64,000 nt of DNA, from contig NC_047016.1 in NCBI RefSeq assembly GCF_902652985.1, positions 52,142,001 through 52,206,000 on the forward strand, in the 5' to 3' direction. Numbering within the stretch: position 1 is the first letter of the stretch; the number at the start of each line of letters is the position of its first letter. Shown here piece by piece: positions 990 through 33,848 of this stretch. Under the pieces are notes generated by a model that worked only from the letters and a program-made list of their open reading frames with translations, was not told the origin of the DNA and made no database searches. The DNA comes from Pecten maximus. Its lineage: Eukaryota. The position numbers and the translations under genes are program-made.

Positions 990-1435
990 AACGACGACAC
1001 TATAGGAGACTGGTTCGCCGAGCAGCTGTATTGCCACTTGTACCACTACACCAAGTAGAAAACGTAAGAGGACATCCAGGAAGCTGACCTACACATTGAC
1101 GTTACGCCATTCACAGACTACGTTGTTGACCGGTGGATAGAGGTGGAGACAGTTGGGAACCACTACGACAACGACGGACCTGAAGGACGACCAACCACTT
1201 AGAAGCCTAGCACGGGAAACTCAAAAAGATTGTACACCACACACATCCTAACATCTTCACAATTATACGGACATTCAAGGACATATACAGGCTACTAATG
1301 AGATAACTAGACTTCAACGTCGCGCTGGACCCCGACCCAGGAAATACAGAAACATTGACACTCGCCTTGTCCTTCAGAAACAGAGACTGGAGAACCATAT
1401 AATATCCTACACCGACGCAGCCTCCGAATTTCTTC
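990..1435 (+). pseudogene. MULE (Mutator-like) transposase C-terminal remnant
   Basis: Frameshifted translation gives YRRLVRRAAVLPLVPLHQV...FTDYVVDRWI...NHYDNDGP/RTTNHLEA*HGKLKKIVHHTHPNIFTII. This matches the RTNNxxEGWH...HPNI motif of MULE transposases. Stop and frameshifts are present. Confidence 0.75.
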
Positions 1436-1439
1436 ACTT

Positions 1440-1690
1440 AGGTTGTACTGATGTAACATGGACAAGGTTGTACTGATGTAACACGGACTAGGTTGTACTG
1501 ATGTAACATGGACAAGGTTGTACTGATGTAACATGGACAAGGTTGTACTGATGTAACATGGACAAGGTTGTACTGATGTAACATGGACAAGGTTGTACTG
1601 ATGTAACATGGACATGGTTGTACTGATGTAACATGGACAAGGTTGTACTGATGTAACATGGACAAGGTTGTACATGATGTAACATGGACA
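1440..1690. repeat. 25-bp minisatellite (GGTTGTACTGATGTAACATGGACAA), ~10 copies
   Basis: Directly visible. It explains the 25-aa periodic ORFs at 1307-1685. Confidence 0.97.
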
Positions 1691-3154
1691 GTGCTTTATC
1701 CTATTTGTATTTTACTACACTGTGATAATAAATTTGTAGATTTGTTCCAACTGTGTACATGTATACATGTATTTGCATGCCTGTTACAGTTTTCTGTGTA
1801 TATTCATTGATTTCAATTTTGTCTGTCGTGTAACATTATATTATATAAACATAATGTAAGATTCTAATAGTCCTACCAAAATATGTGATATTATATTAAT
1901 ATGTAATATTCTATGATTATAATAGTGATATTTCAAACTGTGTATCTTTAAATTAGCATACATGTACATTTCTAGTGCTCTATATAATTAAGATTCTAAT
2001 GATGTTATTCCTATCAAAATGTGTAAATTTACATTAACGTGTATAATTGTAGTTCTCAATTTATAATAAAGATTCTGATAATGTCGTTTTCAAATTATGA
2101 AAAGATATCTTAACTTGCAGAATTCTAATTAGAATTTTTAAAATTGATATGCTTGTGTTCTGGTTTTCTTTAGTTGTCAAATGATTTCTACAGGTAAAAT
2201 ATCTCGGTAAATACAGAACATGTATAAAACAGACTATAATTACCCTCCCTTTGATGTCTCTGCCTATTGTTCTAAATATGTAGGCGTTCAGGGAACACAC
2301 CCCCCTGCTGGTACAGGTGTGACACTCTTTGATTACCTGGACAGTTCAGGTATAGCCTCAGGAAATCTTTCAATACACTGGCCGGTTATAGAGATACACA
2401 GATAAGTCAACTTATAAATCTTCCCATGTGTGAGAAATTTATCTTCATATATGGTAGAAATTACTTCCATAACTGTGAATGTATAATTGAAATATGTTGA
2501 AAGTTGTATTGCCCAGTAAATCTATATAATAAATATTTCATACAGAAATTGAATCTGAGTAGTCAATCATATATAGTTCATAATCTTACTTATCAAGGTA
2601 AAGTAATAATACAAACTGGTAATTGCGTTACCTTTGTATAATTTATATAAAATACCACAAAAGACTGCAAATCACCATTCTACTGTGCCACGCACTCACT
2701 ATTTCTTGCATATTATGTAATATGTATAACCATGGATAATATATTAAATCATTATCTTTTATTCTTATTTTGTATTATACAAGTTCATGTGGAATTTGCA
2801 TAATGAGGATGTTGGAATTATAAAACGTGTAAAAAAGTTATGGTGTAACATATGTATATCAAAAAAGATGTTCTTAAAATTTAGATGATTTCAATGCAGC
2901 AACCTTTGTGTTGATTATTGAAAAAAATATACAGTTTATTCAGGTGTCTTTAATATTTCAATTTATGTCTTAATAATTATGCTATTTAAACAACATATAG
3001 AACTATTGAATTAATATTCAACTCAGACGGGAATCGGGCTGTGAATCACGAAAGATTGAAAAATAAACCCCTAAAATTTTATATAAGATACAGTTGTGCA
3101 ATGTAGAACATATACTTGAGTCCATTCTCTGAAATTAATACCAATTATGACCCC

Positions 3155-3635
3155 ATTTTTAGCCCATCATCTGATTTTTAGCCCACCATCTCATATGTAG
3201 GTTGCCCTTGGTCCCTAGTTACAATGTATGCATATTTCATTTTGGGACCAGTCAGAAAACAACATGGCCGACAGGCAGTCATCTTGGATTTTGACAATTG
3301 AAGTTTATTATCGCTATTTCTCAGAAAGTACTAAAGGGATCTTTCTGAAGTTTCATATGTAGGTTGTTGCCCTTGGACCCTAGTAACAATGTATGCATAT
3401 TTCACGTTGGGGCCAATCGGAAAACAACATGACCGACAGGCAGCCATCTTAGATTTTGACAATTGAAGTTTGTTATCGCTATTTCTCAGAGAGTACAGAA
3501 GGGATCCTCCTGAAATTTCATATGTAGGTTCCTCTTAGTCCCTCGTATTGCATTTTGGGACCAATCTGAAAACAACATGGCCGACAGACAGCCATTATCG
3601 CTAAATCTCAAATTTCATATATAGGTTCCCTTTGT
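3155..3635 (+). mobile_element. Non-autonomous Helentron/HINE-like element with ~2.5 internal core repeats of ~170 bp
   Basis: Starts TTTTTAGCCCA(C/T)CATC. The internal repeat CATATGTAGGTT...GGGACCAATC..AAAACAACATGGCCGACAG..GCCATCTT.GATTTTGACAATTGAAG occurs 2-3 times. The family assignment comes from recalled bivalve HINE architecture. Confidence 0.6.
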
Positions 3636-7920: not shown

Positions 7921-8883
7921 CAGAAATAACTTTGATTAAGTCGCGCTTCTGCTTTACAATATAATTCCTGGCGATGGTAAAAAATCTCGATTATATCTAC
8001 ACGATGTCTCAAGAAAAACCTTAACTGCATGTTAACAAGATTGGTAAATACATGTACTTCGAAATATCTGGTGCGGCTTACGGCTATCCAGTAAGCATAT
8101 TAAGCTTACTTACTCTCATCCGAAAGCAGAATTGGACTAAGATTATCAATATAGGTGAAATAGTAGATCAATAATACATTCCAGAACAGGTGTACTCTTG
8201 TGTTTAACCAAAGATATTTGACATAAAACAAGAACAATCACCAACATATAAACTTTACCTTTCATTCTGGTGACAGGAAATGGTATGTAGGGATATGATA
8301 GTGATGATAAACAAATAATGAATCAAGAAAAAATGTTCATTGTTTTATACTATATATATATATATATACCTAAATGGTATTACAGAAAACAATATAAATA
8401 GAGACAGTCATAGACAGGTCAGCCTGGTAATCGGCTGCTTTTGTAAAATGCAGATGTGCGGCCAAGATTGCAAAACTCGAACATGCTGCTTTTCCATGTC
8501 GGAAAAATGGCGTTCACTGGAACAACGCCGTGACTTTCTTCACGACTTTGTCTTTATTTACCAGCAGTGACGTTATTTATCAGGATAAGACGTCAAACTT
8601 TATTTCAATATGTAGGTAAAAATATCTCCCTATCAATATATCAATTAATAAAATGATGTGTTCATTTTTTACCTTTCTGCATTAGCCTGCTGGCACTCAT
8701 CGTTGTACTACAATCAACACAAAATCGGCTTCGTGGTACAAACCTCGTTAAATGACCTACTCTATCATGATCCGGGCTTCTTGATAACAAAAATAACCTT
8801 CGTACTATCAATATCAGAAGAGCACAGGTGCGTGATTTAAGCAAGATAAATGTGACCTCTTTACTTCAGCGTAATTATTTCAG

Positions 8884-11848
8884 GGAGAACATCCGCGCAG
8901 CTATAGGTAAGTGGTCGTGGTATGTGTGTTTAGGGAGGACACGAGTACAGCTATAGGTACGTGGTCGTGGTATGTGTGTTTAGGGAGGACAAAGGATGAG
9001 CTATAGGTAAGTGGGCGTGGTATGTGTGTTTAGGGAGGACACCAGTACAGCTATAGGTAAGTGGGCGTGGTATGTGTGTTTAGGGAGGACACCAGTACAG
9101 CTATAGGTAAGTGGTCGTGGTATGTGTGTGTAGGGAGGACATCAGTACAGCTATAGGTAAGTAGTCGTGGTATGTGTGTTTAGGGAGGACAAAAGATGAG
9201 CTATAGGTAAGTAGTCGTGGTATGTGTGTTTAGGGAGGACACCAGTACAGGTATAGGTAAGTGGTAGTGGTATGTGTGTTTAGGGAGGACACCAGTACAG
9301 CTATAGGTAAGTGGTCGTGGTATGTGTGTTTCGGGAGGACACCAGTACAGCTATAGGTAAGTGGTCGTGGTATGTGTGTTACGGGAGGACACGAGTACAG
9401 CTATAGGTAAGTGGTCGTGGTATGTGTGTTTAGGGAGGACACCAGTACAGCTATAGGTAAGTGGTCGTGGTATGTGTGTTTAGGGAGGACACCAGTACAG
9501 CTATAGGTAAGTGGTCGTGGTATGTGTGTTTAGGGAGGACACCAGTACAGCTATAGGTAAGTGGTCGTGGTATGTGTGTTTAGGGAGGACACCAGTACAG
9601 CTATAGGTAAGTGGTCGTGGTATGTGTGTTTAGGGAGGACACCAGTACAGCTATAGGTAAGTGGTCGTGGTATGTTTGTTTAGGGAGGACACCAGTACAG
9701 CTATAGGTAAGTGGTCGTGGTATGTGTGTTTAGGGAGGACACCAGTACAGCTATAGGTAAGTGGTCGTGGTATGTGTGTTTAGGGAGGACACCAGTACAG
9801 CTATAGGTAAGTGGTCGTGGTATGTGTGTTTAGGGAGGACAAAGAATGAGCTATAGGTAAGTGGTCGTGGTATGTGTGTTTAGGGAGGACAAAGGATGAG
9901 CTATAGGTAAGTGGTCGTGGTATGTGTGTTTAGGGAGGACAAAGGATGAGCTATAGGTAAGTGGTCGTGGTATGTTTGTTTAGGGAGGACATCAGTCGAG
10001 GTATAGGTAAGTGGTCGTGGTATGTGTGTTTAGGGAGGACACCAGTACAGCTATAGGTAAGTGGTCGTGGTATGTGTGTTTAGGGAGGACACCAGTACAG
10101 CTATAGGTACGTGGTCGTGGTATGTGTGTTTAGGGAGGACACCAGTACAGCTATAGGTAAGTGGTCGTGGTATGTGTGTTTAGGGAGGACACCAGTACAG
10201 CTATAGGTAAGTGGTCGTGGTATGTGTGTTTCGGGAGGACACCAGTACAGCTATAGGTAAGTGGTCGTGGTATGTGTGTTTAGGGAGGACACCAGTACAG
10301 CTATAGGTAAGTGGTCGTGGTATGTGTGTTTAGGGAGGACAAAGGATGAGCTATAGGTAAGTAGTCGTGGTATGTGTGTTTAGGGAGGACACCAGTACAG
10401 CTATAGGTAAGTGGTAGTGGTATGTGTGTTTAGGGAGGACACCAGTACAGCTATAGGTAAGTGGTAGTGGTATGTGTGTTTAGGGAGGACACCAGTACAG
10501 CTATAGGTAAGTGGTCGTGGTATGTGTGTTTAGGGAGGACACCAGTACAGCTATAGGTAAGTAGTAGTGGTATGTTTGTTTAGGGAGGACACCAGCACAG
10601 CTATAGGTAAGTGGTCGTGGTATGTGTGTTTAGGGAGGACAAAAGATGAGCTATAGGTAAGTAGTCGTGGTATGTGTGTTTAGGGAGGACACCAGTACAG
10701 CTATAGGTAAGTGGTCGTGGTATGTGTGTTTAGGGAGGACAAAAGATGAGCTATAGGTAAGTGGTAGTGGTATGTGTGTTTAGGGAGGACACCAGTACAG
10801 CTATAGGTAAGTGGTCGTGGTATGTGTGTTTAGGGAGGACAAAAGATGAGCTATAGGTAAGTAGTCGTGGTATGTGTGTTTAGGGAGGACACCAGTACAG
10901 CTATAGGTAAGTAGTCGTGGTATGTGTGTTTAGGGAGGACACCAGTACAGCTATAGGTAAGTGGTCGTGGTATGTGTGTTTAGGGAGGACAAAAGATGAG
11001 CTATAGGTACGTAGTCGTGGTATGTGTGTTTAGGGAGGACAAAAGATGAGCTATAGGTAAGTGGTAGTGGTATGTTTGTTTAGGGAGGACAAAAGATGAG
11101 CTATAGGTAAGTGGTCGTGGTATGTTTGTTTAGGGAGGACACCAGCACAGCTATAGGTAAGTGGTAGTGGTATGTGTGTTGAGGGGGGACAAAAGATGAG
11201 CTATAGGTAAGTGGTCGTGGTATGTTTGTTTAGGGAGGACACCAGCACAGCTATAGGTAAGTGGTAGTGGTATGTGTGTATAGGGAGGACAAAGGATGAG
11301 CTATAAGTAAGTGGTAGTGGTATGTGTGTTTAGGGAGGACAAATGATGAGCTATAGGTAAGTGGTAGTGGTATGTTTGTTTAGGGAGGACAAAAGATGAG
11401 CTATAGGTAAGTGGTAGTGGTATGTGTGTTTAGGGAGGACACCAGTACAGCTATAGGTAAGTGGTCGTGGTATGTGTGTTTAGAGAGGACACGAGTACAG
11501 CTATAGGTAAGTGGTCGTGGTATGTGTGTTTAGGGAGGACATCAGTACAGCTATAGGTAAGTGGTCGTGGTATGTGTGTTTAGGGAGGACACCAGCACAG
11601 CTATAGGTAAGTGGTCGTGGTATGTGTGTTTAGGGAGGACAACAGCACAGCTATAGGTAAGTGGTCGTGGTATGTGTGTTTAGGGAGGACACCAGCACAG
11701 CTATAGGTAAGTGGTCGTGGTATGTGCGTTTAGGGAGGACACCAGCACAGCTATAGGTAAGTGGTCGTGGTATGTGTGTTTAGGGAGGACACCAGCACAG
11801 CTATAGGTAAGTGGTCGTGGTATGTGTGTTTAGGGAGGACAAAAGATG
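8884..11848 (+). repeat. 50-bp tandem satellite (CTATAGGTAAGTGGTCGTGGTATGTGTGTTTAGGGAGGAC+ACCAGTACAG/AAAAGATGAG), ~59 copies
   Basis: Strict 50-bp register across ~2.95 kb, with two main 10-bp variants. Confidence 0.98.
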
Positions 11849-12002
11849 TAATTCGTACTAAGTCGTACGTATAAGTAAATCGTACGTACGAATTAGTACG
11901 AATTACTAATTCGTACGTACGATTTACTTAATTCGTACGTACGGATTACTAATTCGTACGTACGATTTAATTTTTTTATAGTGGCCCTAATACGCTTCCG
12001 TA
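11849..12002. mobile_element. Solitary right end of an IS3EU-like foldback element with 21-bp subterminal repeats (ATTACTAATTCGTACGTACGA)
   Basis: Ends GTGGCCCTAATACGCTTCCGTA, resembling the terminus TTGGTCCTATACGGCTTCCGTA at 45590. Same 21-bp palindromic subterminal organisation. Confidence 0.65.
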
Positions 12003-13520
12003 CCATCGCACTCTTATCGTATAATATTTTTTTCAGTCGATATCTTGCCATTTTAGCTATCTGAGCAGCCATCGACATAAAATAGGCAGAACAAATATAG
12101 TGAGATACGTGTAATTTTTTTAATAACCTCGTACATATCGTAAAGCTGTACCCGGCTAGTGTGTGAAAACGCCATCTTGCTTTTAGGAAAGGTCTCTGAA
12201 GCGAGACTATGGTGTTGTCTTTTTTTCGGTTTTAAAAGTTCTGCTTTTAGATCAGTCGAACGAAAAGTATAAGTCAAACTTGTTGGTAGATAAAATATAT
12301 AGTGAACATCGTAAGATAATCTTCCAGAATTTATGGTCCAGTCGCGCTGAAAATCAACGATGCCTGAAATCTGAACTTAAAAGTTTATTGTTTATCTCAA
12401 ATCCTGAAAAAAGTACCAATGCTATTCCAACCAAACCTGGAATAAAGTTGTATTGTAATATGATTACATGAATTTTATGATTTTGTGTATTATTGGTTTG
12501 CGAAACTAACGTAACATCGTTATTGCCCTAACGATTAATGTACTTATTAGCCAAAACGCAAGTTATTAATGGATCAGATGTATTGCCTTCTTACGTTAGA
12601 TCCTAATTATTTTATCAGTAAAATCTTTGAGGATTAGTAAATTTGTAAAGTTTGCTATTAGTCGTATGAAACAACAAATATTTACACGTGGTTTTTGCGT
12701 TACATGCGGAGTATTTACAAAAAAAACCCCACTACTTTGAGTAGATTGATTAAGCTGTAAGTGTGAAAAAAATACAGAAATGTTTGTGAAAATGGAGTTT
12801 GGTTAAAACTCAATATACCAACAAAAAGGGGACCGTGGAGAGATTTTTTTTTTTTAAGTTTTATTTTCTACACAAGGCTTCATTCGTACACCAACACCAT
12901 CACAAACGCACCGTAGACACGTTAGTTTCTATGTAACAAAGAATTAGTGCCAAATCCCGAAATCGACGAACCGATTATCGTATAAACGTATTCACAACAT
13001 GGCTACAATTGACACTGGATATTATCAAATGTAATACAATAGTCTTTTTTTTTGCTTTTTTTTTAATAAAAAAAATACTGATTAAAAAATTGGCGAAAAT
13101 GCGGTTTCGCAAGAAGACGTTAAGAAAGAAAAAATATAGTATTTCAAGAAAACGGCGGATGAATTGTGGGTAATTATCCAGTCATGTATTATGTACCATG
13201 TGCAATATAAGCATTCATAAAATCCCCATCCAAAACCATTTTGAATTTCGGGCTATGGAATCCTCGATGTCAAACCAAGACCTTCCCCGTAATCACCTTG
13301 ACAATTTCAAAATTGTTTTTCATTCTCATTCCAACCTTTTCGTGCCTGTGATACTCCAGTTAGTGTCGCTAAATCGAGGTACTCGTGTGCTGAGGTCAAC
13401 GATGTAATTTTGTGATCATTTCACTGCGATTTCAATGCTATTACGACGAAATAATGTCGCATATATTTGATTTTGCCGAAATATGGAGGTATTTATGCAC
13501 TAATATCATTCTGTTTAAGG

Positions 13521-14898
13521 ATGGCGACGAAATCGAAGCTATATCCACTTGTGTCATTACCAAGACCAGCTTGGGCACTTTTTGACAGGTCAGGTAAGTC
13601 GACACATAATGTTGTAATATAGGCGACAAAGAAACGTCACAATACAATTACAACATAATGTTGTATATAGGCGACACAGAAACGTCACAGTAATTATATA
13701 TAATATTGAATTAATTGTAGAGAGTGACATTATTTCTTAAAAGGATGAACGTTCTATTTATTGTAAAACAATCATGTTTAGACACGTAACTCATGTAAAT
13801 ACAATTACAACATAATGTTGTAAACACGTGAAAAAGAAACGTCACAGTAATTATATCTACAAGGGCAAATATTGGATTAATGTAGAGAGTGACATTATTT
13901 CTTAAAGGGATGAATGTTCTATTTATTGTAAAACAATCATGTTTAGACACGTAACTCATGTAAATACAATTACAACATAATGTTGTATATAGGCGACAAA
14001 GAAACGTCACAGTAATTATATATAATATTGGATTAATTGTAGAGAGTGACATTATTTCTTAAAATGATGAACGTTCTATTTATTGTACAATAATCATGAT
14101 TGTTTAATACTTATCAATGTTTATGAAAGATTGTTGTTTTATTCAGGTCATCTGCCTATACATGGAGCTTTACAGTATACTGAGGATGGGCAAGCAGAGT
14201 TGTCGCAGCTGGAATTCCCAACAAATACTCTCAAACAAGCATTCGCTATAAGGGAAAAGACAAAATGTTCTCCAAAACTTCATCAAATCGGCTTTTGTCA
14301 GGATTGCAATATTTCAATGCACGTGTCTATTCCAAAGATTGGAAAAACGTCATATTCTATTTTTCATGACCTGTTCGATTCCGCCACAATGGAACGGATG
14401 TTACACATAGAAACAAAGCTAGTGAACATTGATCCTGAAACAAGGAGACCATCGCAACTTCCCTCTGCTTTTACTGAACAATACACCGATTTTAAGAGTG
14501 ACTATCCTGTCTTGATAACTGATGCTCAAGAAGATCTTGTCCTACCAACAAACGCCTTTAAAACATTGATTCGCACGAGGTATAGCGATACGGATCAAAA
14601 TTCGCATGTCAATTACTCAGAGTATTATAGATTCTGCGCAGACTGTGCTTCGGAAGCGTCTCGATCCGGGTACTATCGTCACTATGCCGACGACATTTGT
14701 CGGTTTCCTGTTCTCGAGACAGATGTTACATTTATTGGAGAATCCCCAGCATGTTCAAATTTGGACGTGTACACTTGGCAAGACAATGTTAACGTTCAGA
14801 TTATTAATTTTGCAATCTATCTAAAATCTGACAGGATATTTCAAGCACAGTTTTTGTATAGCTTTGAAAAATCACCCAGAATAAATTCAAGATTTTGA
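13521..14898 (+). CDS. Double-hotdog acyl-thioesterase-like protein, paralog 2 (coding exons 13521-13593, 14147-14898)
   Basis: Exon MATKSKLYPLVSLPRPAWALFDRS-G|gtaagt joins in phase 1 to attcag|GT CAT (GHLPIHG...). Motif RYSDTDQNSHVN. Ends in SRF. Confidence 0.88.
13600..14095. repeat. ~160-bp tandem repeat (~3 copies) filling the intron of thioesterase paralog 2
   Basis: AATACAATTACAACATAATGTTG...AGAGAGTGACATTATTTCTTAAA recurs at about 13641, 13798 and 13962. Confidence 0.9.
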
Positions 14899-17755: not shown

Positions 17756-17775
17756 AGTCCAAACGTGACGAAAAG
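17756..17775 (+). other. Putative 20-nt non-coding 5'UTR micro-exon of thioesterase paralog 3
   Basis: Branch-like CTGAC, pyrimidine tract, then cgcag|AGTCCAAACGTGACGAAAAG|gtgagt. Confidence 0.5.
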
Positions 17776-17802: not shown

Positions 17803-19690
17803 TTCAATTTTAACATATTTTATTGACTGATGTTATATCAATATAGGATTGGACATCAGGCAGAGCCTATATAAGTCCTCTCCTTACATAAAAAAGGTAA
17901 ACAAACTTGATATTGACATACAACCAATATGGATTATACAATAATAAGGAAGGTATCTTCTTAGTTTGTTATGATTTTTACATGATTAGGAGAAAGTAAC
18001 TTCTTAAAAGATGATTTAATTGTTGTGAAATGTATAAGTATGCCTATTTGGTCAAATTGAGCTTATTCCCCCAACAGCTACAGGCCGACAGTCCATATGT
18101 ATATAACATAAAAGCCATCCACTGATGGGGATCAAAACCCATTTTCACTAGAGAGGTATATATAGTTTGTGAATGGAGTTACAGTAAAGCTTACTAATTA
18201 TATGTTCAGTCTAAAATTGCTGCTATAGAAGTTACCTCGATTTAACACTTTTATAATATAAACTATATTACAACAATGCCAATTTCCATCCAGTCCATTC
18301 TCCACTATTTGTGCATTAATAGGGTGTTAGAGGTGTACTCTATATGCTACATAACTAAATAAGTTCCAATGAAGAATAAAAATAAAAAATAAAAACAAAA
18401 ATAAAAATGGGGATGATGCATATCAAATATCAAATCTTTCAGTTTCATGTATGTGCTGTGTTACACATTTTAGTATGTCAATATTGACATTATTGTTACA
18501 TAGATAATATCCTTTTAGCAGAGTATTAATATTATAGTGATTGTGATCATCTTGAGTGTTTATTTGTGCTAAGCTTTGCATTAGATGTTGTCTAGCATAT
18601 TAAATAAAGGACATTCAAACATGAAATGTTGAATATTTTCATTTTCATAGTTACATATACATGCTGCTGATTCAACTAGGTAATCATTATGAAGATGTGA
18701 ATTTAGGTTTGAGGCATTGTTTCTTAATTGGCAGAGTATAATATTTTCTTTGTCCGTTGTACTTGAAAATATTACTTACCTCATATATGTCATTATTATC
18801 ATTTGTATATTTAATGAGTTTTTTTAATTGATTTAATGTATTAGCATTTAATACTTCTCTGTCTAGTTGATTAAATTCATTAAGAGTTGATGGGAAAAAA
18901 CGTTTTGAGTAACGTTCAGTTCTGCAAAGTGGGGGGTTGAAAAGTCGATTATTTCTAAATGGATATCTAATGCGTGTGTTGTCATTAATGTGTGGTTCAA
19001 TAATATCGGCAAGGTATTTAGGTGTTTCATTAGTTTATATTTTGTACATTAATACAAGTTTATGATTCCCTTGTCATTCTTACAGTCAAGAGTTTCGATG
19101 TATAATTTATCATTGGATGTCCTCCTTCTTAATCCTGTAATTATTCTCAGAGCTTCTAATTGGATTTATTCTAAACAGTTTTTGTTTTGGTTTGTACAAT
19201 TATCCCAGATTACATCCCCATATTCTAAAATTGGTCTTATGTATGAGGTATAAATGGTCAATAGGCTTTTTCTATCAACTTTGTGTTTAACAATCTTAGT
19301 ATGTTCATTCTTTTATATGCTTTATTAAAAGTATTGTTTATATGAGTGTTCCATTTGCCATCATTACTAAACGTTAGTCCTAAATGTTTGTGATCCACAA
19401 CAAAATTAACTGCATCATTAGCAAATAGAATATCTGGATTTATTATCTCCTTTTTTCTCGAGAAAAGTACTGATTCTGTTTTTAATGAATTAAAATGTAT
19501 ATCCCATTTTATTACCCATGTATTTATATTATCTAAATCATTAGTTAACTTTTCAGAAATTTCCATTTGGTTATTGTCTATTATTTCATATAATGAAGTA
19601 TCATCAGCAAAGAGTTTTTTTTTGCTTTCAATACAATAAGTGATGTCATTGATATATATTAGAAATAAGAAAGGACCGAGCATTGAGCCT
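17803..19690 (-). mobile_element. 5'-truncated CR1/L2-group LINE (reverse transcriptase C-terminal part plus 3'UTR), decayed
   Basis: ORF 19258-19779 has GSMLGPFLFLIYIND and LFADDTSLY RT motifs and HKHLGL. The 3' end has AATAAA and a TTGAA tail at ~17803-17823. A 9-bp TSD ATGGGCCTA lies at 17794-17802 and 19691-19699. Confidence 0.9.
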
Positions 19691-21059
19691 ATGGGCCTAA
19701 TACATCTATCTTCGGGAATGAAAGGGTCCGATGTGTTTTCGTTTATGTAAATAACGAGAGAGAATAAGATCGGTAACAAATTTATCGGGGACGAGCAAAG
19801 GTAAAAAAAACGCTTACAGGAGCAAATACCGATATACCCTTTCCGCTCGATTGAAGTATAAAGAAATGTAATTTATTTATTGTTTTGCGTTGATTTAGGT
19901 ATTTACAGAACACGGTCACTATTCTTTCATACGTAAATAAGGGAACGTCTTAGTTTTATCATATATCTTTTGAAAATAATATGCCTTGTGTGATATTCCA
20001 GGTGATTTTAACAGTTACAGTCGCTTTAACACACTTTAATCCAGAATGTATCAATTTAATTTAAATAAACAGATAAGTTGTTATTTGTGGGGGTTTGTGA
20101 AATTTAAACATATAAATGTTAAGGTATTCAGGTTTTAATGTTATAATCATGGACAAATGACTTCAAATTATGTTGAACTATATCAATTAATTTAACCATT
20201 TGAAGCTGAATTTCTTACCGTAACGAAGCTAATTATCCGTGTTGTAATTAATAATCATAGTGGTTATTTTACATTCTTAAATACATTTTATCCGATGAGC
20301 ATTCTCATTTATTATACCTAATCTTATTAACGTGATTATGCTAATATCATAACTGTATATATGACTATATCACAAATGATGATGTTATATTTTTGGTAAA
20401 AACTAATGAGAATAATGAAGGTCCTGTTCATCCATCGCAAGCTCCAAAAGAAGAGAGAGAGTAAAATGAGTGGTTATATTACTTTTTACTCTTCCCATAG
20501 TTTACATAGTGCTTTTGAATTTTCATTTACCAACAAGTAATAAGCAAACCATCCAAAGCACATATAGAACATGTGCTACGCAACCCATTCAGAATATCAC
20601 TGTCTCACCATTTAGCGTAATGCCATTAGAATGTAATGTCAAGGGTTATGCTACTGAGTTCTGGGCATTTTCAAGAGGAGAATGTTTTGATATTTCATCT
20701 TCAGAAATGAAGGGAAAACTGAACAGAATACATATATTGCGTATAGAAGAATACATCGATATTTTGTCGTACCGACAAATACATGTGATGCTCTAAGGGA
20801 AATCATTCAATATCCTTTTATTTACTCTAAGGTTAATACGAAAACAACCAAATTATCTATCCATAAAAAAAGAACGCTAGTTTCGGATTATTTTTTAAAG
20901 TCTCAAGTGACCTGCTTCCGGTTTATTCGATTAACAGATTAGATAACATTTCAATATCTCTATTAAGATGGATGTAATCTTCAGGGATAAAAAGCTCTTA
21001 TGTCGTACACTGAGTTAAATGAATACATAACCAATCATACTCTTTTCAGGTAGGATAGC

Positions 21060-24601: not shown

Positions 24602-26890
24602 TCTCCCTCTTTTTGAGATGAACGAATCTAAGCTTAAGGTGACACCTTCAATAAATCAACCCATAAGTATTTAGCCATGTCCATAAGTATTTGACAAATA
24701 ACCTATGAATATATATCTAATCACACACTGGACATTATATAGCTACACCTTAGCTATTTAATAAAAATCATCATAAGGTTTTGGTTTGACAACCATTCTG
24801 CCTGAGCGCGTACTTACAGATGAAGGATTGTCACTGCACATGGGTTTGGATTGTATACGATCATGATCATAGTGTTCATCAGATGCCTCATTACTGTTCA
24901 AAATGTCTTCCTCCTCTTTTGACACGTTTGCCGAGTTCTTAGGTGGGATATCCTCATGAATAACACTGCGTGGCATAGACTGAAGTTTGTTCAAAAGTAC
25001 TGGACTTTTAACGTTGTTTGTTATATCAAAATTGTCTGTGGGCTGAGGCCCATGTCTTGATAAGAGTCAGTGTCTACGATTTCTTCAGTAAACACCTCGG
25101 TGTGTTCTGACACGATTTGACCGTCTTTTATGATTAGTCGCTTCCACTGTTCCTTTCAAGCTCCACAGTTTCTGGTTGTCTAGCTTAATTTTGACAATGT
25201 CTCCAGGCTCAAGTTTTGGTAAAGGACGGACAGCATTTCGGCGATCATATTGAGCTGTGTACCGTTCCTTATAGCTTTTGTCATGCCGCTCAATCCGTTT
25301 CTTACTTGGCCATTTAGGGTTCAGTGTTTTTGGTGCGGCCGGTACGGATGTCCTTATCTTTCGACCCATGAGAAGCTGACAAGGGCTAGCTCCCATCGAG
25401 GCGATAGGTGTTGCCCTATACCCCATCAGGGCAAGAAATTTATCGTCTTGCGCAAGTATTCGTTTTGCGATCTTCACTCCACTCTCCGCTTCTCCATTTG
25501 CTTGAGGGTAGTGTGGACTGGTAAAGGTCTGAATGAAGTTGTACTTCTCTGCGAACTTGTCAAATTCCTGTGAGGCAAATTGCGTGCCATTATCCGAAAC
25601 CAGTTCTTCCGGAACGCCGAATCGCGCAAATATGTTCTTTAGTTTGCCGATAACTTGACCACTAGTCTATGTTGGACAGATGTGCGATCTCCAAAAACCT
25701 CGAGTAGTAGTCCATAACCATGCCATGGTCGTTGAGGAAGCGGAGTAACTTTTAATGGTTCCTTTCATTGAGGAGGTTTGTGCTCCTGGCAGAAAGTACA
25801 CCGTTCCACCATTTCCTTAAGATCCTTCCCTATGTTGGGCCACCATACGCAAGTAGCTGCATGCTCGCGACACTTTGTAATACCCAGATGACCTTCATGG
25901 AGTGTTTCCAGGATCTCCCTCTGTAAACAGTTTGGTATCACAATCCTCTGTCTGTATAGGAGCAAACCATTAGATGTTGACAGTTCATTACGCACCGCAA
26001 AATAGCCTTCCATCTCCCGTATCGAGTATTCACGATCTGGCCACCCAGACTTAGTAGGAGTAAGGGCTTTAGCAAGTTGTGGGTCTTCTGTAGTAGCTTG
26101 ACGTATACGGGACAATTTGCGGTCTGATATCGGCCATGTCGATTCGACAGAGACCACAAACATTTCTACATCATCGTCAGAGGGAATCTCGCTTATCTCG
26201 AGGGGACTCCTTGACAGAGTATTAGGAACTACCAAAGATTTCCCTGGTACATGTTCTGCAATCGGAGTAAATCTCCTTAGGCGCATAAGCAATCATTGAC
26301 ATCTCAGTGGCTTTCTGTCAAGATCTTGAGTGTTTATGAGTGGCACTAAAGGCTTGTGATCAGTGAACAATTTAAATGACTCTAGTCCGACCAAATAACG
26401 TTTAAATTTCTCGCAGGCCCAGACGGATGCCAAACATTCCTTTTCAATTTGGGCGTACCTGGACTCAGCGGGAGTTAGTGTGCGAGAGCAGAATGCAACT
26501 GGCTTGACCTCATCTCCATCCTTTTGAAATAGTGCACCACCTAGACCGTAGCTGCTGGCATCAGCACCGACAAATGTAGGTTTGTTTGGAGAATAGAATG
26601 TCAAAGTAGGAGTACTTGTTAACTTCTCCTTTATCTCATTGAATGCTGTTTGCTGGTGTGGAGTCCACTGCCACACTACATCAGACTTCAAAATGTCCAT
26701 CATAGGACGTATGATTGTTGACAGGTCTGGAATGAACCTTCCCAGATAGTTTGTCATGCCAATGACTCTTCGTAGCTCGGTAAGGTCTCTTGGTGACTCG
26801 AGTCCTCTAATGGCTTCTAAGCGACTTGGGTTAACGCTTACGCCATCTCCACTAATCACGTGGCCAAAGTATTCAAGTTTGGATTTTCCA
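24406..26890 (-). mobile_element. Decayed, 5'-truncated Ty3/Gypsy LTR retrotransposon (RT end, RNase H, integrase, PPT, 3' LTR)
   Basis: RNase [10 protein letters not shown]...[10 protein letters not shown]...TDHKPL (26293-26859). Integrase zinc finger HEGHLG...WWP...C..C (25765-26292). Integrase core SDNG/PHYPQANGEAE/YRATP. PPT AAAAAGAGGGAGA at 24602-24614. Confidence 0.93.
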
Positions 26891-28164
26891 ATTGCTCATC
26901 ATAAGTAGTTATCTATTTCATTTTAGCACTTACTCCCTTCTTTTTATAAATTATCGGCATCCTAGACTCACTTTTACCGGCATCATGTAAAAACTAACGA
27001 TGTCAATATCAGCTTAAACTAATTACACCAATTATCGCCAACTCGTCGCTTCAGATTACATTTATATTTAAATTACTATCGATACGCTTACTCAGAATGC
27101 CATACAGAATTGAAAAAAACGCATTAATAATTCAGTTCATTTAGTACTCATCGTTTTCGCCCTCCGCCATATTGCATGCAGGCCATTACAGTTAATCGCA
27201 TCAGGTTCTCCACCGCGACCGTGGGAATAGAGAAAGTTTCTCTCGCAAATATTATCCAATATACAGTAATTCGTTCTGATTTGACGTGGGTTTAAATGAA
27301 CATACCATTTATATTATTATATGTTTTATTCATCTGTTAAAACATACAAAAAACACAATTCTAACTAAAAGTCGAAAATAGTTATATCTATCACAATGTG
27401 GATACATCGTTTTTCTCATTGAGCTATAATAAATGTTTCTTTAATCCACTGCATACATCCTGGCAAATGTTCTCTCCAAGTATGTGAACAGTGATCATGA
27501 CTGTTGATCGAAAACATTTCAGTAATAATTCGAAATATGCACTTATATATGAGGAATAACATTCAACGCTTGGAATGAATGATACACATGTAAAACACGT
27601 GTACACGAAACCTGACTTCCTACTGTATTAGAGTACATTTGGACGAAATGTCGCGCTACGTTATTGAGAGCTGACTTCACTAACTCGGCCTATTTGTGGT
27701 AGTTAGATGATATCAGCGGTCAGAACACCGACACTCGGCTATTGCAATCTTTACTTGACAAAGGAAATAGACGTTTTCGAAAGATCGCAAATGAAATTTT
27801 TAATTTTCTGTTTGCGTACAAAACTTATTTAGCTTTATACTTCATAATTAAATATATTTTTGCAAAGACATGTTACACTCCAAAGAAGAAAAAGGAAGGA
27901 TATCCTTTGATTGGTCCGTTAAAAAGCATTGTTATCTGATAGGGAATTAAGAAATATGGGGTCAAAGGGTAGAGTAATTTCAGAATGACAGAAATACCTA
28001 GGCATATCATTCGTATGCCTTTTGAAAATATCGTTATTTCCTTTTTTGAATCCTATATTGCAGATTCAGCAAGGTAGCACATCAAGTTCTGTATTTGTTT
28101 TGTTCCTATGTAATGTAGACTTATAACAATGACACCGATGATTGACATATAAATTCCAATTTAT

Positions 28165-29821
28165 TTAACCAATTACACCCATTGTTGTAGGTACTGTAGT
28201 GTGTCCGTGGTGGGGATGCGACACCACGAATACGTCCTGACCAGCACACATATGTTCTACATGCATACTTAGGTCATTAACATCGTCATGTGACATCTGT
28301 GTTTGGGTTCCCTTGGCTACGAGGAACATCAGATTACTCTGAAATAAAAACAGAAATGGAAAATGTCAACGAAACAGCATTTATAACTCAAAAAGATAAA
28401 AACTGCTTGAATAGAATATCGGTATAGGAGCCATAGAATTGAGGGAGAATAGAAATAAGACCAGAAGATCCGGAAGATATGCGTCCTCTGTTTCATCAAC
28501 GACAGTCGTCATGTAAAACAAAACCTTAATGACGATGTCAGGTCTAACTTATTACACAAGCTTATTCGTCACAACATATTAAACAGGAATTATTTCTTAA
28601 ACGAAAGATGAATGTCTTAACCTTTGATATCAATTAAAGATATTCTTTGTCAGGGGATGACGGTGTAATATATACATGTGGTATTTACCTCCATCTTCAG
28701 TAGTCCGTCTGTTGTGTGTACTTGGGGTCGCTGTGAAGCTTTCAGCTTCTCAATATAACATCTGCTTCCCAGCTTCATCACCATTTGATGCTGAAGAAGA
28801 TCCATTGCATATGATAGCGAATACTTGTTAAAAACTGATTTAATCATGCAATCAGTTTCCGTAGAATTGTGTATAAATAAAATTATTTCAGTAATACGTG
28901 TCAGAACGTATTCGAAATACGCCCCTTTATGTACAACAAATCTAGTGAGTATATTATCAGAAATCTTTACTTAATTGTAAGTAAACGAATCATATAGCAG
29001 AGCGCCACCTTTCTAATGTATTATTTATCTTATAATTTTTTATCATAAATTCCCATTATTATCAAAATTATGTCATGATAATGCTTGGGCGACATTTGAT
29101 TACATATCACAAAAATACGTTTTATCGAGATAGTTATCATATGTCAATATTATTGTAGTGGTAAGTGAAAATGCATTTTGCAAAATAGTGGTCTAATTTA
29201 TCGTGATCAATCGAGATAACTACCATTGTCTAAATCATCATAATAAATCAATTAAACATGATAATGTAAACTTAATGTATCGACTTGATAAACTAAATAT
29301 GCCATTTTAAATATCAGATTCATTTAAAACCTGGAACATACCGATTTGGCGTCATAGTAAAACAGGCCCTGGTCGAACTCGTTAGATTCGTGAACGTGAT
29401 GGCGATGAGTGGTGGGCGTGAAGGTTGTCATACCACATATCTGTAAACATTTAATGCCTTTTATCTTACAAATGGTACTGTTTCTATAATTCAAAAGTAC
29501 GCGAGTAATTAATATCTTCGTTGTAGAAATAGATTTATTGCTATTTCAGCCAAGCTGATATTGTGAAATAAAATGTTTGCAAATGAAAAATTTCATTAAA
29601 CACGTATACGACCTTTTGCAAAACCAGGTGATGAAACATTGCCAATGACATTGCCGTCTTACATATTCGTGTATGTGCCAAACAAACGTACATTTTGATA
29701 TATTTTTCCTAAGCTTGAAATTTCACAATATGCATGAAACACAAAAAATAAACAAAATAAAATAAATAAAACAACATACCTGCCCAAAAAGGCATACGGC
29801 CACAACTAACACACAGTACAT
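28165..29821 (-). CDS. Secreted His-rich BRICHOS-like protein A, 138 aa (exons 29821-29780, 29440-29342, 28790-28689, 28338-28165)
   Basis: All introns are GT-AG phase 0. MYCVLVVAVCLFGQ/ICGMTTFTPTTHRHHVHESNEFDQGLFYYDAKS/HQMVMKLGSRCYIEKLKASQRPQVHTTDGLLKME/SNLMFLVAKGTQTQMSHDDVNDLSMHVEHMCAGQDVFVVSHPHHGHTTVPTTMGVIG*. TATA-like at ~29893-29899. AATAAA overlaps the stop. The gene model is well supported by paralogy; the BRICHOS label is inference. Confidence 0.88.
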
Positions 29822-32383: not shown

Positions 32384-33848
32384 ATGTACTGTGCGGTGGC
32401 AGCCATAGCTTTGTGCCTGATTGGGCAGGTATGTTTCTTTCATGGCGATTAATTTTTGTTGTAAAACTTGTTATAATAAATATGCCTTCGGAAGCAGGTG
32501 CCATTCTTGACCACTTGCCATTACTTTATACTTATAATTGACGACGACAAGATTCTACTCTTGATTACTACATAGTATAACTCGTCATTTTGTTACAGGT
32601 CTATACCATGACAACAATACCTCCTAACCATTCACACAGTCCTCATGTCCACGAATCTAACGAGTTTGACCAGGCCTTGTTTTACTATGACGCTCTATCG
32701 GTAGGTATTATCATTCTGTCCGCGGACGAATATGTTAATTTCTATCAGATATCGCAAACATACTTAGTATCTTTGTTATTGGTTACCTATGGTCTTCAGG
32801 TGGAAATTTGAGCTGAACATATATATCACGTAATCTTTAAATGAAAATTAACTGCACAACATGACAACCAATGTTCTGTAGATTTAAAATCAATTAGAAT
32901 TGTTCTTCTATAGCCGAAAAAATAGATAGCCTTATTTCAAAGTTTAGATATGTGCATGAGTTATATTTTATACTTTCATTAATGTCAGATCGGTTATTAG
33001 AAGCTTTGATGACTTCCGTCTATGATTTAACATCCATCAGTTGATATCTCACATGTATCTCTACAGCATGAAATGGTCATGAAACGCGGGCAGCAGTGCT
33101 ATATAGAGAGAGTGAGAGGTTCCTACCGACCACAGGTACATACACCAGAAGGACTACTGAAGATGGAGGTAAGTACAGTTATCTATCACGTGGAGATGGA
33201 GGTAAGTACACATATCTGTCACGTGAAGATGGAGGTAAGTTCACATATCTGTCACGTGAAGATGGAGGTAAGTTCACATATCTGTCACGTGAAGATCGAG
33301 GTAAGTACACACATCTGTGACGTTAAGATGGAGGTAAGTACACATATCTGACACATGAAGATGGAGGTAAGTACACATATCTGTCACGTGAGGATGGAGG
33401 TAAGTACACACATCTATCACGTGAAGATGGAAGAAAGTACACACATCTATCACGTGAAAATGGAAATAAGTACACACATCTATCACGTGAAAATGAAAAG
33501 TAATTGCAGAGGTTTATAACGACAATGTTCAATCAGAAACGGCAAAAGTGGACAGGACAAGTAATAGTACAATAGGTGTATCGTTAACCCTGAGTGTAAT
33601 TATGCTTAGACACTGACTGCAATCAAAACTATAAAGTTGACTGAAAATCAAATCATAAGCATGTTTTTTTTTATTTCAAGGATAACCTCATGTTTCTCGT
33701 TGCCAAGGGAAACCACACACAGATGTCTCATGCTGATGTCAAGGCGTTAAGTGTGCACGTGGAAACCATGTGTGCGGGTCTTGATGTATTTGTTGTGTCG
33801 CCTAATCATTATCATCATCATACTACAACTATGAGCCCAATTGTTTGA
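32384..33848 (+). CDS. Secreted His-rich BRICHOS-like protein B, 138 aa (exons 32384-32428, 32599-32700, 33067-33168, 33681-33848)
   Basis: MYCAVAAIALCLIGQ/VYTMTTIPPNHSHSPHVHESNEFDQALFYYDALS/HEMVMKRGQQCYIERVRGSYRPQVHTPEGLLKME/DNLMFLVAKGNHTQMSHADVKALSVHVETMCAGLDVFVVSPNHYHHHTTTMSPIV*. Phase-0 GT-AG introns at the same positions as A and C. AATAAA at the stop. Confidence 0.88.
33159..33500 (+). repeat. 33-bp tandem repeat of the exon-3 end plus splice donor (GAAGATGGAG|GTAAGTACACATATCTGTCACGT), ~10 copies
   Basis: GTAAGT donors at 33169, 33202, 33235, 33268, 33301, 33334, 33367 and 33400. Later copies have lost the GT. Confidence 0.95.

What the first reader, a model, noticed from the sequence alone, without database searches (positions are those of the whole stretch)
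8884..11848. The 50-bp satellite is a tandemly amplified micro-exon with its splice sites
Seen: the array begins at a unique-looking micro-exon, aattatttcag|GGAGAACATCCGCGCAGCTATAG|gtaagt (8884-8906). Almost every unit parses as a 27-nt GTAAGT...TTTAG pseudo-intron plus a 23-nt exon-like GGAGGAC(ACCAGTAC/AAAAGATG)AGCTATAG. This gives roughly 55-59 consensus donors on the sense strand upstream of thioesterase 2, whose ATG exon starts with an acceptor at ~13519. Paralog 3 has a similarly placed 20-nt candidate micro-exon (17756-17775). Established: 27 nt is below normal spliceosomal intron size. Inference: the copies act as competing donors or U1 snRNP-binding decoys, or give variable 5'UTRs (one variant carries an upstream ATG).
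Basis: partly seen in the sequence, partly recalled or inferred. Interest (0 to 1): 0.7.

Follow-up and report, generated by a model that had tools for sequence, protein, structure and literature searches.

The report
Splice-donor minisatellite in scallop thioesterase leader
A 50-base piece covering the end of a real untranslated exon and its splice signal has been copied about 59 times in a row in a scallop thioesterase-like gene; the spare signals are likely ignored, as in known human and lancelet cases, so this is an ordinary member of a known kind of repeat.

Summary
The array is real: 59 units of 50 bp, 56 with GTAAGT and 3 with GTACGT, found only at this locus and on a second contig of it. 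An RNA contig joins the first donor (8906) to the ATG exon at 13520. That contig also contains the supposed acceptor, so the founder is the end of a longer exon (about 8686-8906), not a shown micro-exon. The copies have no branch point or pyrimidine tract (55 of 55). Neither informative contig (2 of 4 runs) uses a copy. This is an exon-intron-boundary minisatellite like human F7 and amphioxus 'mirages', likely tolerated because the first donor wins. The scan has noted this kind before: 29 notes in at least 19 genomes, three of those shown from this genome. New here: paralogue 1 has its own unrelated donor array, and genome-wide triple-motif counts give 12,484 for the donor against 1,112-3,176 for same-letter controls. 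That is about 3-fold after background, while one acceptor motif is depleted. An array-level sample shows only about 1.8-fold. Interest is low to moderate.

The parts
8686..8906 (+). 5'UTR exon of thioesterase paralogue 2 (221 nt in this allele); its 5' part and acceptor lie in a dispersed repeat
   Evidence: X6 contig lays 8685-8823 and shows 8874-8903 directly before the ATG exon; strong acceptor at 8685; use of that acceptor is inferred because the contig's first 149 letters were not placed; repeat: 34 other matches to 8560-8757
8879..8928 (+). founder (edge) unit: last 28 nt of the exon plus first 22 nt of the intron, with the authentic donor at 8906/8907
   Evidence: 22 of 28 identical to the commonest unit over 8879-8906, 5 of 22 further upstream; donor joined to 13520
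8898..11849 (+). 50-bp minisatellite, about 59 units, 58 extra donor copies (55 GTAAGT, 3 GTACGT; the nearest copy at 8957 is a weak GTACGT)
   Evidence: U1 duplex -7.4 against -11.6 kcal/mol
8828..8883 (+). possible 56-nt intron (GT...AG) that would leave a 23-nt exon in this allele; untested
   Evidence: sequence; the X6 allele lacks 33 letters here, inferred to include the GT
11849..12002 (+). insertion ending in one terminal repeat of a dispersed MITE-like family; replaces the array's 3' end seen on C1727
   Evidence: 56 exact genome matches, several as inverted pairs
13520..13593 (+). ATG exon of paralogue 2 (acceptor 13519; ATG 13521)
   Evidence: RNA contigs of X6, X8, X1; P0001 N-terminus
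14147..14898 (+). last coding exon of paralogue 2, thioesterase-like (hot-dog) protein
   Evidence: 4HBT_2 E 6e-5, just under the cut-off; paralogues 1 and 3 pass; joined to the ATG exon
17756..17775 (+). candidate 20-nt exon of paralogue 3; no sequence likeness to the paralogue 2 exon; not tested with RNA

Best explanation
The array is a single-locus minisatellite whose first unit spans the real donor of a 5'UTR exon, and its 58 extra donors are likely ignored because the spliceosome is predicted to define the exon from the upstream acceptor to the first donor. Shown: the array, its confinement to this locus, the 8906-to-13520 junction, the exon running upstream through the supposed acceptor, the lack of branch point and pyrimidine tract in the copies, and different array lengths on the two contigs of the locus. 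Inferred: birth by a local duplication and growth by slippage or unequal exchange in a genome that is about one-fifth minisatellite; silence of the copies by first-donor preference as in F7; near-neutrality. Leakage to the nearest copies would lengthen the UTR exon by 50 nt per unit and add a three-codon uORF each time (ATG TGT GTT TAG in the commonest unit), which would slightly dampen translation.
For: X6 contig: 8685-8823 at record 150-286, ATG exon at 334-412 preceded by 8874-8903; its coordinates agree with the last exon. Unit acceptors lack signals (55 of 55). All 76 pattern matches are at the locus. C1727 has 39 donor units against 59, an insertion inside the array, and lacks the founder exon while keeping the array, which fits decay. 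Arrays fill 312,606 of 1,520,000 sampled bases, 352 arrays. F7: only the most upstream donor is used; IFI6 and CBS also use the two nearest copies (PMC1557585). Mirages do not disturb splicing (PMC3087553).
Against: Only 2 contigs from one study inform on what lies before 13520, and contigs drop rare isoforms. The X6 allele differs from the window (8 other letters and 2 gaps in 139 nt, 33 letters missing, one inferred change near the donor), so it may not carry the array at all. These donors pair with U1 almost perfectly (-11.6 kcal/mol), and in F7 constructs perfect pseudo-sites did draw some splicing. Run X2 has unexplained depth 1.51 in bin 8791-8956.
Confidence: 0.72

Rival explanations
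1. Leaky alternative donors: the nearest strong copies (9006, 9056) are used at measurable rates, giving longer 5'UTRs with extra uORFs, so that array alleles tune expression, as in IFI6 and CBS.
For: Copies pair with U1 as well as the founder does; IFI6 and CBS use two nearby pseudo-sites; the exon would grow only to 271-371 nt with copies 1-3.
Against: Not seen in the 2 informative contigs; the nearest copy is weakened to GTACGT.
Confidence: 0.17
2. One reading: in the window allele a 56-nt intron (8828-8883) is removed, leaving a 23-nt exon, and unit copies can be picked as alternative micro-exons.
For: 8828 is a fair donor (-8.6 kcal/mol) and 8883 has a branch-point match and 10 of 16 pyrimidines; likeness to the unit starts 5 nt before 8884; the X6 allele lacks the 8828 donor, so it cannot test this allele.
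Against: The only transcript seen reads through 8883; copies lack acceptor signals; 27 nt between copies is too short to splice (established knowledge).
Confidence: 0.07
3. Selected U1-binding platform: the array keeps U1 on a long first intron to suppress premature polyadenylation, or acts as a decoy.
For: 56 of 59 donors are perfect GTAAGT on the sense strand; paralogue 1 has its own donor array; genome-wide excess of donor triples.
Against: Homogenisation keeps all unit positions alike, not only the donor; the second contig shows decay; array-level excess is only about 1.8-fold and within the range of shuffles.
Confidence: 0.04

Closest known systems
Human F7 intron 7 37-bp VNTR, and the IFI6 (6-16), CBS, LMNB2 and PDGF cases listed with it (PMC1557585; outline, abstract and 12 passages read)
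   Same: First unit spans an exon-intron boundary; identical donors repeat into the intron; the authentic upstream donor is the one seen in RNA; length varies between alleles.
   Different: 58 copies against 4-25 in those genes; a 5'UTR exon partly made of a dispersed repeat; near-perfect donors; an invertebrate genome where thousands of such matches occur.
Amphioxus 'mirage' minisatellites (Adh3, BflGb6, BflGb9; PMC3087553; 7 passages read)
   Same: Tandem copies of an exon-intron boundary, haplotypes of different length, edge unit left out of homogenisation, splicing apparently normal.
   Different: Many more copies; untranslated exon; two neighbouring paralogues with unrelated donor arrays.
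Internal tandem repeats at exon-intron boundaries of human duplicated genes (PMC2812944; outline and 12 passages read)
   Same: Minisatellites at boundaries of recently duplicated paralogues.
   Different: No new intron or alternative transcript was shown here.
Micro-exons and recursive (ratchet) splice sites (recalled, no call)
   Same: Short AG...GT cassette and AG|GT junction in each unit.
   Different: No branch point or pyrimidine tract before either AG; the founder is part of a longer exon in the transcript seen.

Membership tests
Exon-intron-boundary minisatellite (F7 type / mirage) | Tandem array with minisatellite-sized unit | tested here: met
   50 bp x 58.9
Exon-intron-boundary minisatellite (F7 type / mirage) | First unit spans an authentic exon-intron boundary | tested here: met
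   X6 contig joins 8906 to 13520; one contig, of a divergent allele
Exon-intron-boundary minisatellite (F7 type / mirage) | Splice signal reiterated in the copies | tested here: met
   55 GTAAGT and 3 GTACGT in 58 copies
Exon-intron-boundary minisatellite (F7 type / mirage) | Length differs between haplotypes; edge unit diverged | tested here: met
   59 against 39 donor units on C1727, read as a second haplotype; founder 22 of 28 identical
Exon-intron-boundary minisatellite (F7 type / mirage) | Copies silent or only the nearest used | tested here: inconclusive
   0 of 2 informative contigs use a copy; contigs drop rare forms; array status of those alleles unknown
Micro-exon | Exon of about 30 nt or less with a used acceptor and donor | tested here: not met
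   Supposed acceptor is inside the mRNA contig; not excluded for the window allele
Micro-exon | Copies carry branch point and pyrimidine tract | tested here: not met
   0 of 55 with branch-point match; longest pyrimidine run 1-3
Recursive (ratchet) splice site | Pyrimidine tract directly before AG|GT | tested here: not met
   The 20 nt before each AG|GT are purine-rich
Dispersed satellite family | Same unit at many loci | tested here: not met
   76 of 76 matches at this locus
Hot-dog thioesterase-like protein (4HBT_2) | Pfam match above cut-off; catalytic activity | tested here: inconclusive
   Paralogues 1 and 3 pass, paralogue 2 scores 23.9 against 25.5; activity not testable

The most novel reading that the evidence does not exclude
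In this scallop, minisatellites arise or survive preferentially on 5' splice donors and are purged on acceptors: on the order of a thousand unrelated arrays carry a perfect donor, including both of these neighbouring paralogues. First-donor-wins splicing would thus shape where tandem repeats accumulate, and would stock introns with ready spare donors.
Probability: 0.3. Interest if true: 0.55.

Novelty: new member of a known kind. Interest (0 to 1): 0.27.

Why it matters
The locus itself adds one more large example to a known class. What could matter is scale. The genome offers 12,484 tandem triple matches to a perfect donor, so first-donor preference, so far tested on F7 minigenes, could be measured across hundreds of natural genes with existing RNA-seq. 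C1727, which keeps the array but lacks the founder exon, would be a natural test of whether orphaned donors become active.

Tried and rejected
Micro-exon reading: rejected for the transcript seen. After I considered that the contig held two 23-nt exons; one search showed that the extra letters are the upstream part of the same exon. Genome-wide satellite: rejected. Recursive splice sites: rejected on sequence. Homology between the leader exons of paralogues 2 and 3, or between the two donor arrays: none found. Runs X1, X2 and X15 gave little or no cover at 8075-8956, and X2 none at the ATG exon; absence in contigs proves nothing. X2 and X15 look like one data set. Exon anchoring of other donor arrays was only weakly testable: Pfam hits running up to the first donor in 3 of 23 arrays (trypsin, cupin, SRCR; 5 arrays gave no segment of 20 aa), against 1 clear and 1 faint hit among 40 control edges. 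An acceptor-plus-open-frame rule passed 1 of 14 sampled and 3 of 8 listed arrays (L036 passed too but was scored at the wrong donor and is not counted), against 34 of 416 controls. Neither test separates the sets. Relaxed donor patterns in the first 720 kb were within shuffle range. No ortholog DNA from other scallops could be reached with these tools.

Full report
Setting. The window lies on G000:C2:52142001-52206000 of a 918-Mb genome. Three thioesterase-like paralogues lie in it. The closest protein records are labelled Pecten maximus and Mizuhopecten yessoensis. All 21 protein matches in the genome but two lie on C2.

The array. TRF gives 8898-11841, period 50, 58.9 copies, no indels. Cut from 8907, 56 of 59 units begin GTAAGT and 3 begin GTACGT; 53 of 59 have TTTAG before the exon-like part. 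A 21-nt pattern matches 76 times in the genome, 51 here and 25 on the small contig C1727; its reversed control matches 0 times. So this is a single-locus minisatellite.

RNA evidence. Two stretches were laid against contigs of public runs. One X6 contig (1,315 nt, depth 16.6 in both calls) lays on 8685-8823 at record 150-286 and on the ATG exon at 334-412. The 30 letters before the ATG exon are window 8874-8903. Its place on the last exon agrees to the base. So donor 8906 is real, and the letters of the supposed acceptor are in the mRNA. The exon is about 8686-8906. Caveats: this allele differs from the window, lacks 33 letters (inferred 8824-8856) that include a possible donor at 8828, and its first 149 letters were not placed. 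A 23-nt exon in the window allele is therefore unshown but not excluded, and X6 may lack the array. An X8 contig joins a different exon straight to 13520. That exon ends at C2:52127882, 27,637 nt upstream, so the join skips paralogue 1 and the exon above if its allele resembles C2. X1's contig starts inside the ATG exon and X2 had none. Thus 0 of 2 informative contigs, both from one study, use a copy.

Anatomy. The founder matches the commonest unit at 22 of 28 positions over 8879-8906 and 5 of 22 upstream. The unit is therefore 28 nt of exon end plus 22 nt of intron start. I cannot tell whether the edge unit diverged or a short direct repeat seeded the duplication. None of the 55 unit AGs has a branch-point match, and their pyrimidine runs are 1-3 nt. 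A YAG at that distance arises in 57% of shuffles. The nearest copy is the weak GTACGT (-7.4 against -11.6 kcal/mol with a recalled U1 end); with 3 such units in 58 this may be chance. The variant ATG in 16 of 58 copies is in frame with the main ATG.

Second contig. C1727 (L021) is about 86-95% identical to the flanks. It holds 39 donor units and a roughly 760-nt insertion with a 4-nt duplicated target. It lacks window 7990 to about 8900, including the founder exon, lacks about 19 kb that include paralogue 1, and lacks 34 nt with the acceptor and ATG. The protein on record for a contig of that length has the full N-terminus, so either the model was patched or the contig has an error. I read C1727 as a decaying second haplotype; this is not verified.

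A class, not a one-off. Paralogue 1 has an unrelated 32-bp x 9.2 array with CAG|GTAAGT about 300 nt before its ATG exon. A 33-bp array at 33158 starts at an apparent exon end. Genome-wide triple matches at 25-55 nt spacing: AGGTAAGT 12,484 against same-letter controls 1,112, 3,176 and 2,279; AGGTGAGT 7,068 against 2,336; acceptor motif TTTTCAGG 344 against 509. These count matches, not arrays. After dividing by single-motif counts outside repeats in 1.52 Mb, the net figures are 3.3-fold (1.7-6.6 by control), 2.1-fold and 0.38-fold. Against a strong reading: at array level, 14 of 325 distinct arrays have 8 or more of 9 donor matches, against 2 reversed, 8.2 (max 16) in dinucleotide shuffles and 7.7 (max 14) in background windows; 3 of 325 hold AGGTAAGT. 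Twenty-seven of 352 arrays were dropped as family duplicates first. T-rich motifs may be scarce in minisatellites for reasons unrelated to splicing, and only one acceptor motif was tested. Pfam domains run up to the first donor in 3 of 23 arrays, against 1-2 of 40 control edges. With arrays filling 20.6% of sampled DNA, many will fall on donors by chance; the excess is modest.

Mechanism. Shown: real founder donor, reiterated donors, no acceptor signals in the copies. Inferred: the exon is defined between acceptor 8685 and the first donor, and downstream copies stay silent, as F7 minigenes showed (PMC1557585); leakage to near copies is possible, as in IFI6 and CBS. Amphioxus mirages behave alike (PMC3087553).

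Literature seen. PMC1557585: outline, abstract, 12 passages. PMC3087553: 7 passages. PMC2812944: outline, 12 passages. PMC10078293: 8 passages, nothing bearing. No supplements were read. Searches listed no genome-wide donor-versus-acceptor count in a mollusc; that search was narrow. The scan's own notes hold 29 findings with these words in at least 19 genomes, and three of this kind among the 8 shown for this genome. They are leads, not support; the 'mirage' lead came from them and I read the paper.

Verdict. Observation partly confirmed; a new member of a known kind; interest 0.27.

Noticed in passing
L022:1854-2148 (G000:C2:52133854-52134148): Second donor-bearing minisatellite, 32 bp x 9.2 with CAG|GTAAGT, about 300 nt before the ATG exon of paralogue 1; unrelated to the 50-bp unit; no RNA test.
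   Followed up: partly
L023:5851-5882 (G000:C2:52127851-52127882): Leader exon spliced to paralogue 2 across 27.6 kb that contain paralogue 1; a paralogue on the minus strand lies about 7 kb upstream. A shared leader or bidirectional promoter is possible but unshown.
   Followed up: partly
L021 (G000:C1727:1-10000): Second contig of the locus with a deletion of about 19 kb removing paralogue 1, loss of the founder exon, a 34-nt loss at the ATG exon and a solo-LTR-like insert in the array.
   Followed up: partly
window 33158-33495: 33-bp x 10.2 array with GAG|GTAAGT starting at the end of an apparent coding exon; a similar exon without an array lies at 28650-28970 on the minus strand; no Pfam hit.
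   Followed up: partly
L023:2139-2361 and L023:7819-7983: Two more arrays with donor-like motifs (68-bp and 30-bp units).
   Followed up: no
window 11849-12002: One end of a dispersed MITE-like element (56 exact matches of its terminal motif) has replaced the 3' end of the array.
   Followed up: partly
window 8425-8757: The acceptor and first 70 nt of the UTR exon lie in a dispersed repeat at about 74% identity to its relatives, which suggests an exonised repeat.
   Followed up: partly
G000, contig C2: 19 of 21 matches to this thioesterase-like family lie on one chromosome, with nearly all of the coding sequence in a single exon.
   Followed up: no
L030, L032, L033, L034, L036, L150, L154, L186, L124: Other donor arrays that begin at apparent coding-exon ends; Pfam confirms trypsin (L032), cupin (L034) and SRCR (L150); the rest are judged by eye.
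   Followed up: partly
window 24758-26895 (minus) and 18687-19872 (minus): Broken retrotransposon reading frames, LTR-type and LINE-type by their look (names recalled).
   Followed up: no
window 54927-63506: Exons of an NRF-domain gene (Pfam NRF at 56657-56941) with several minisatellites nearby.
   Followed up: no
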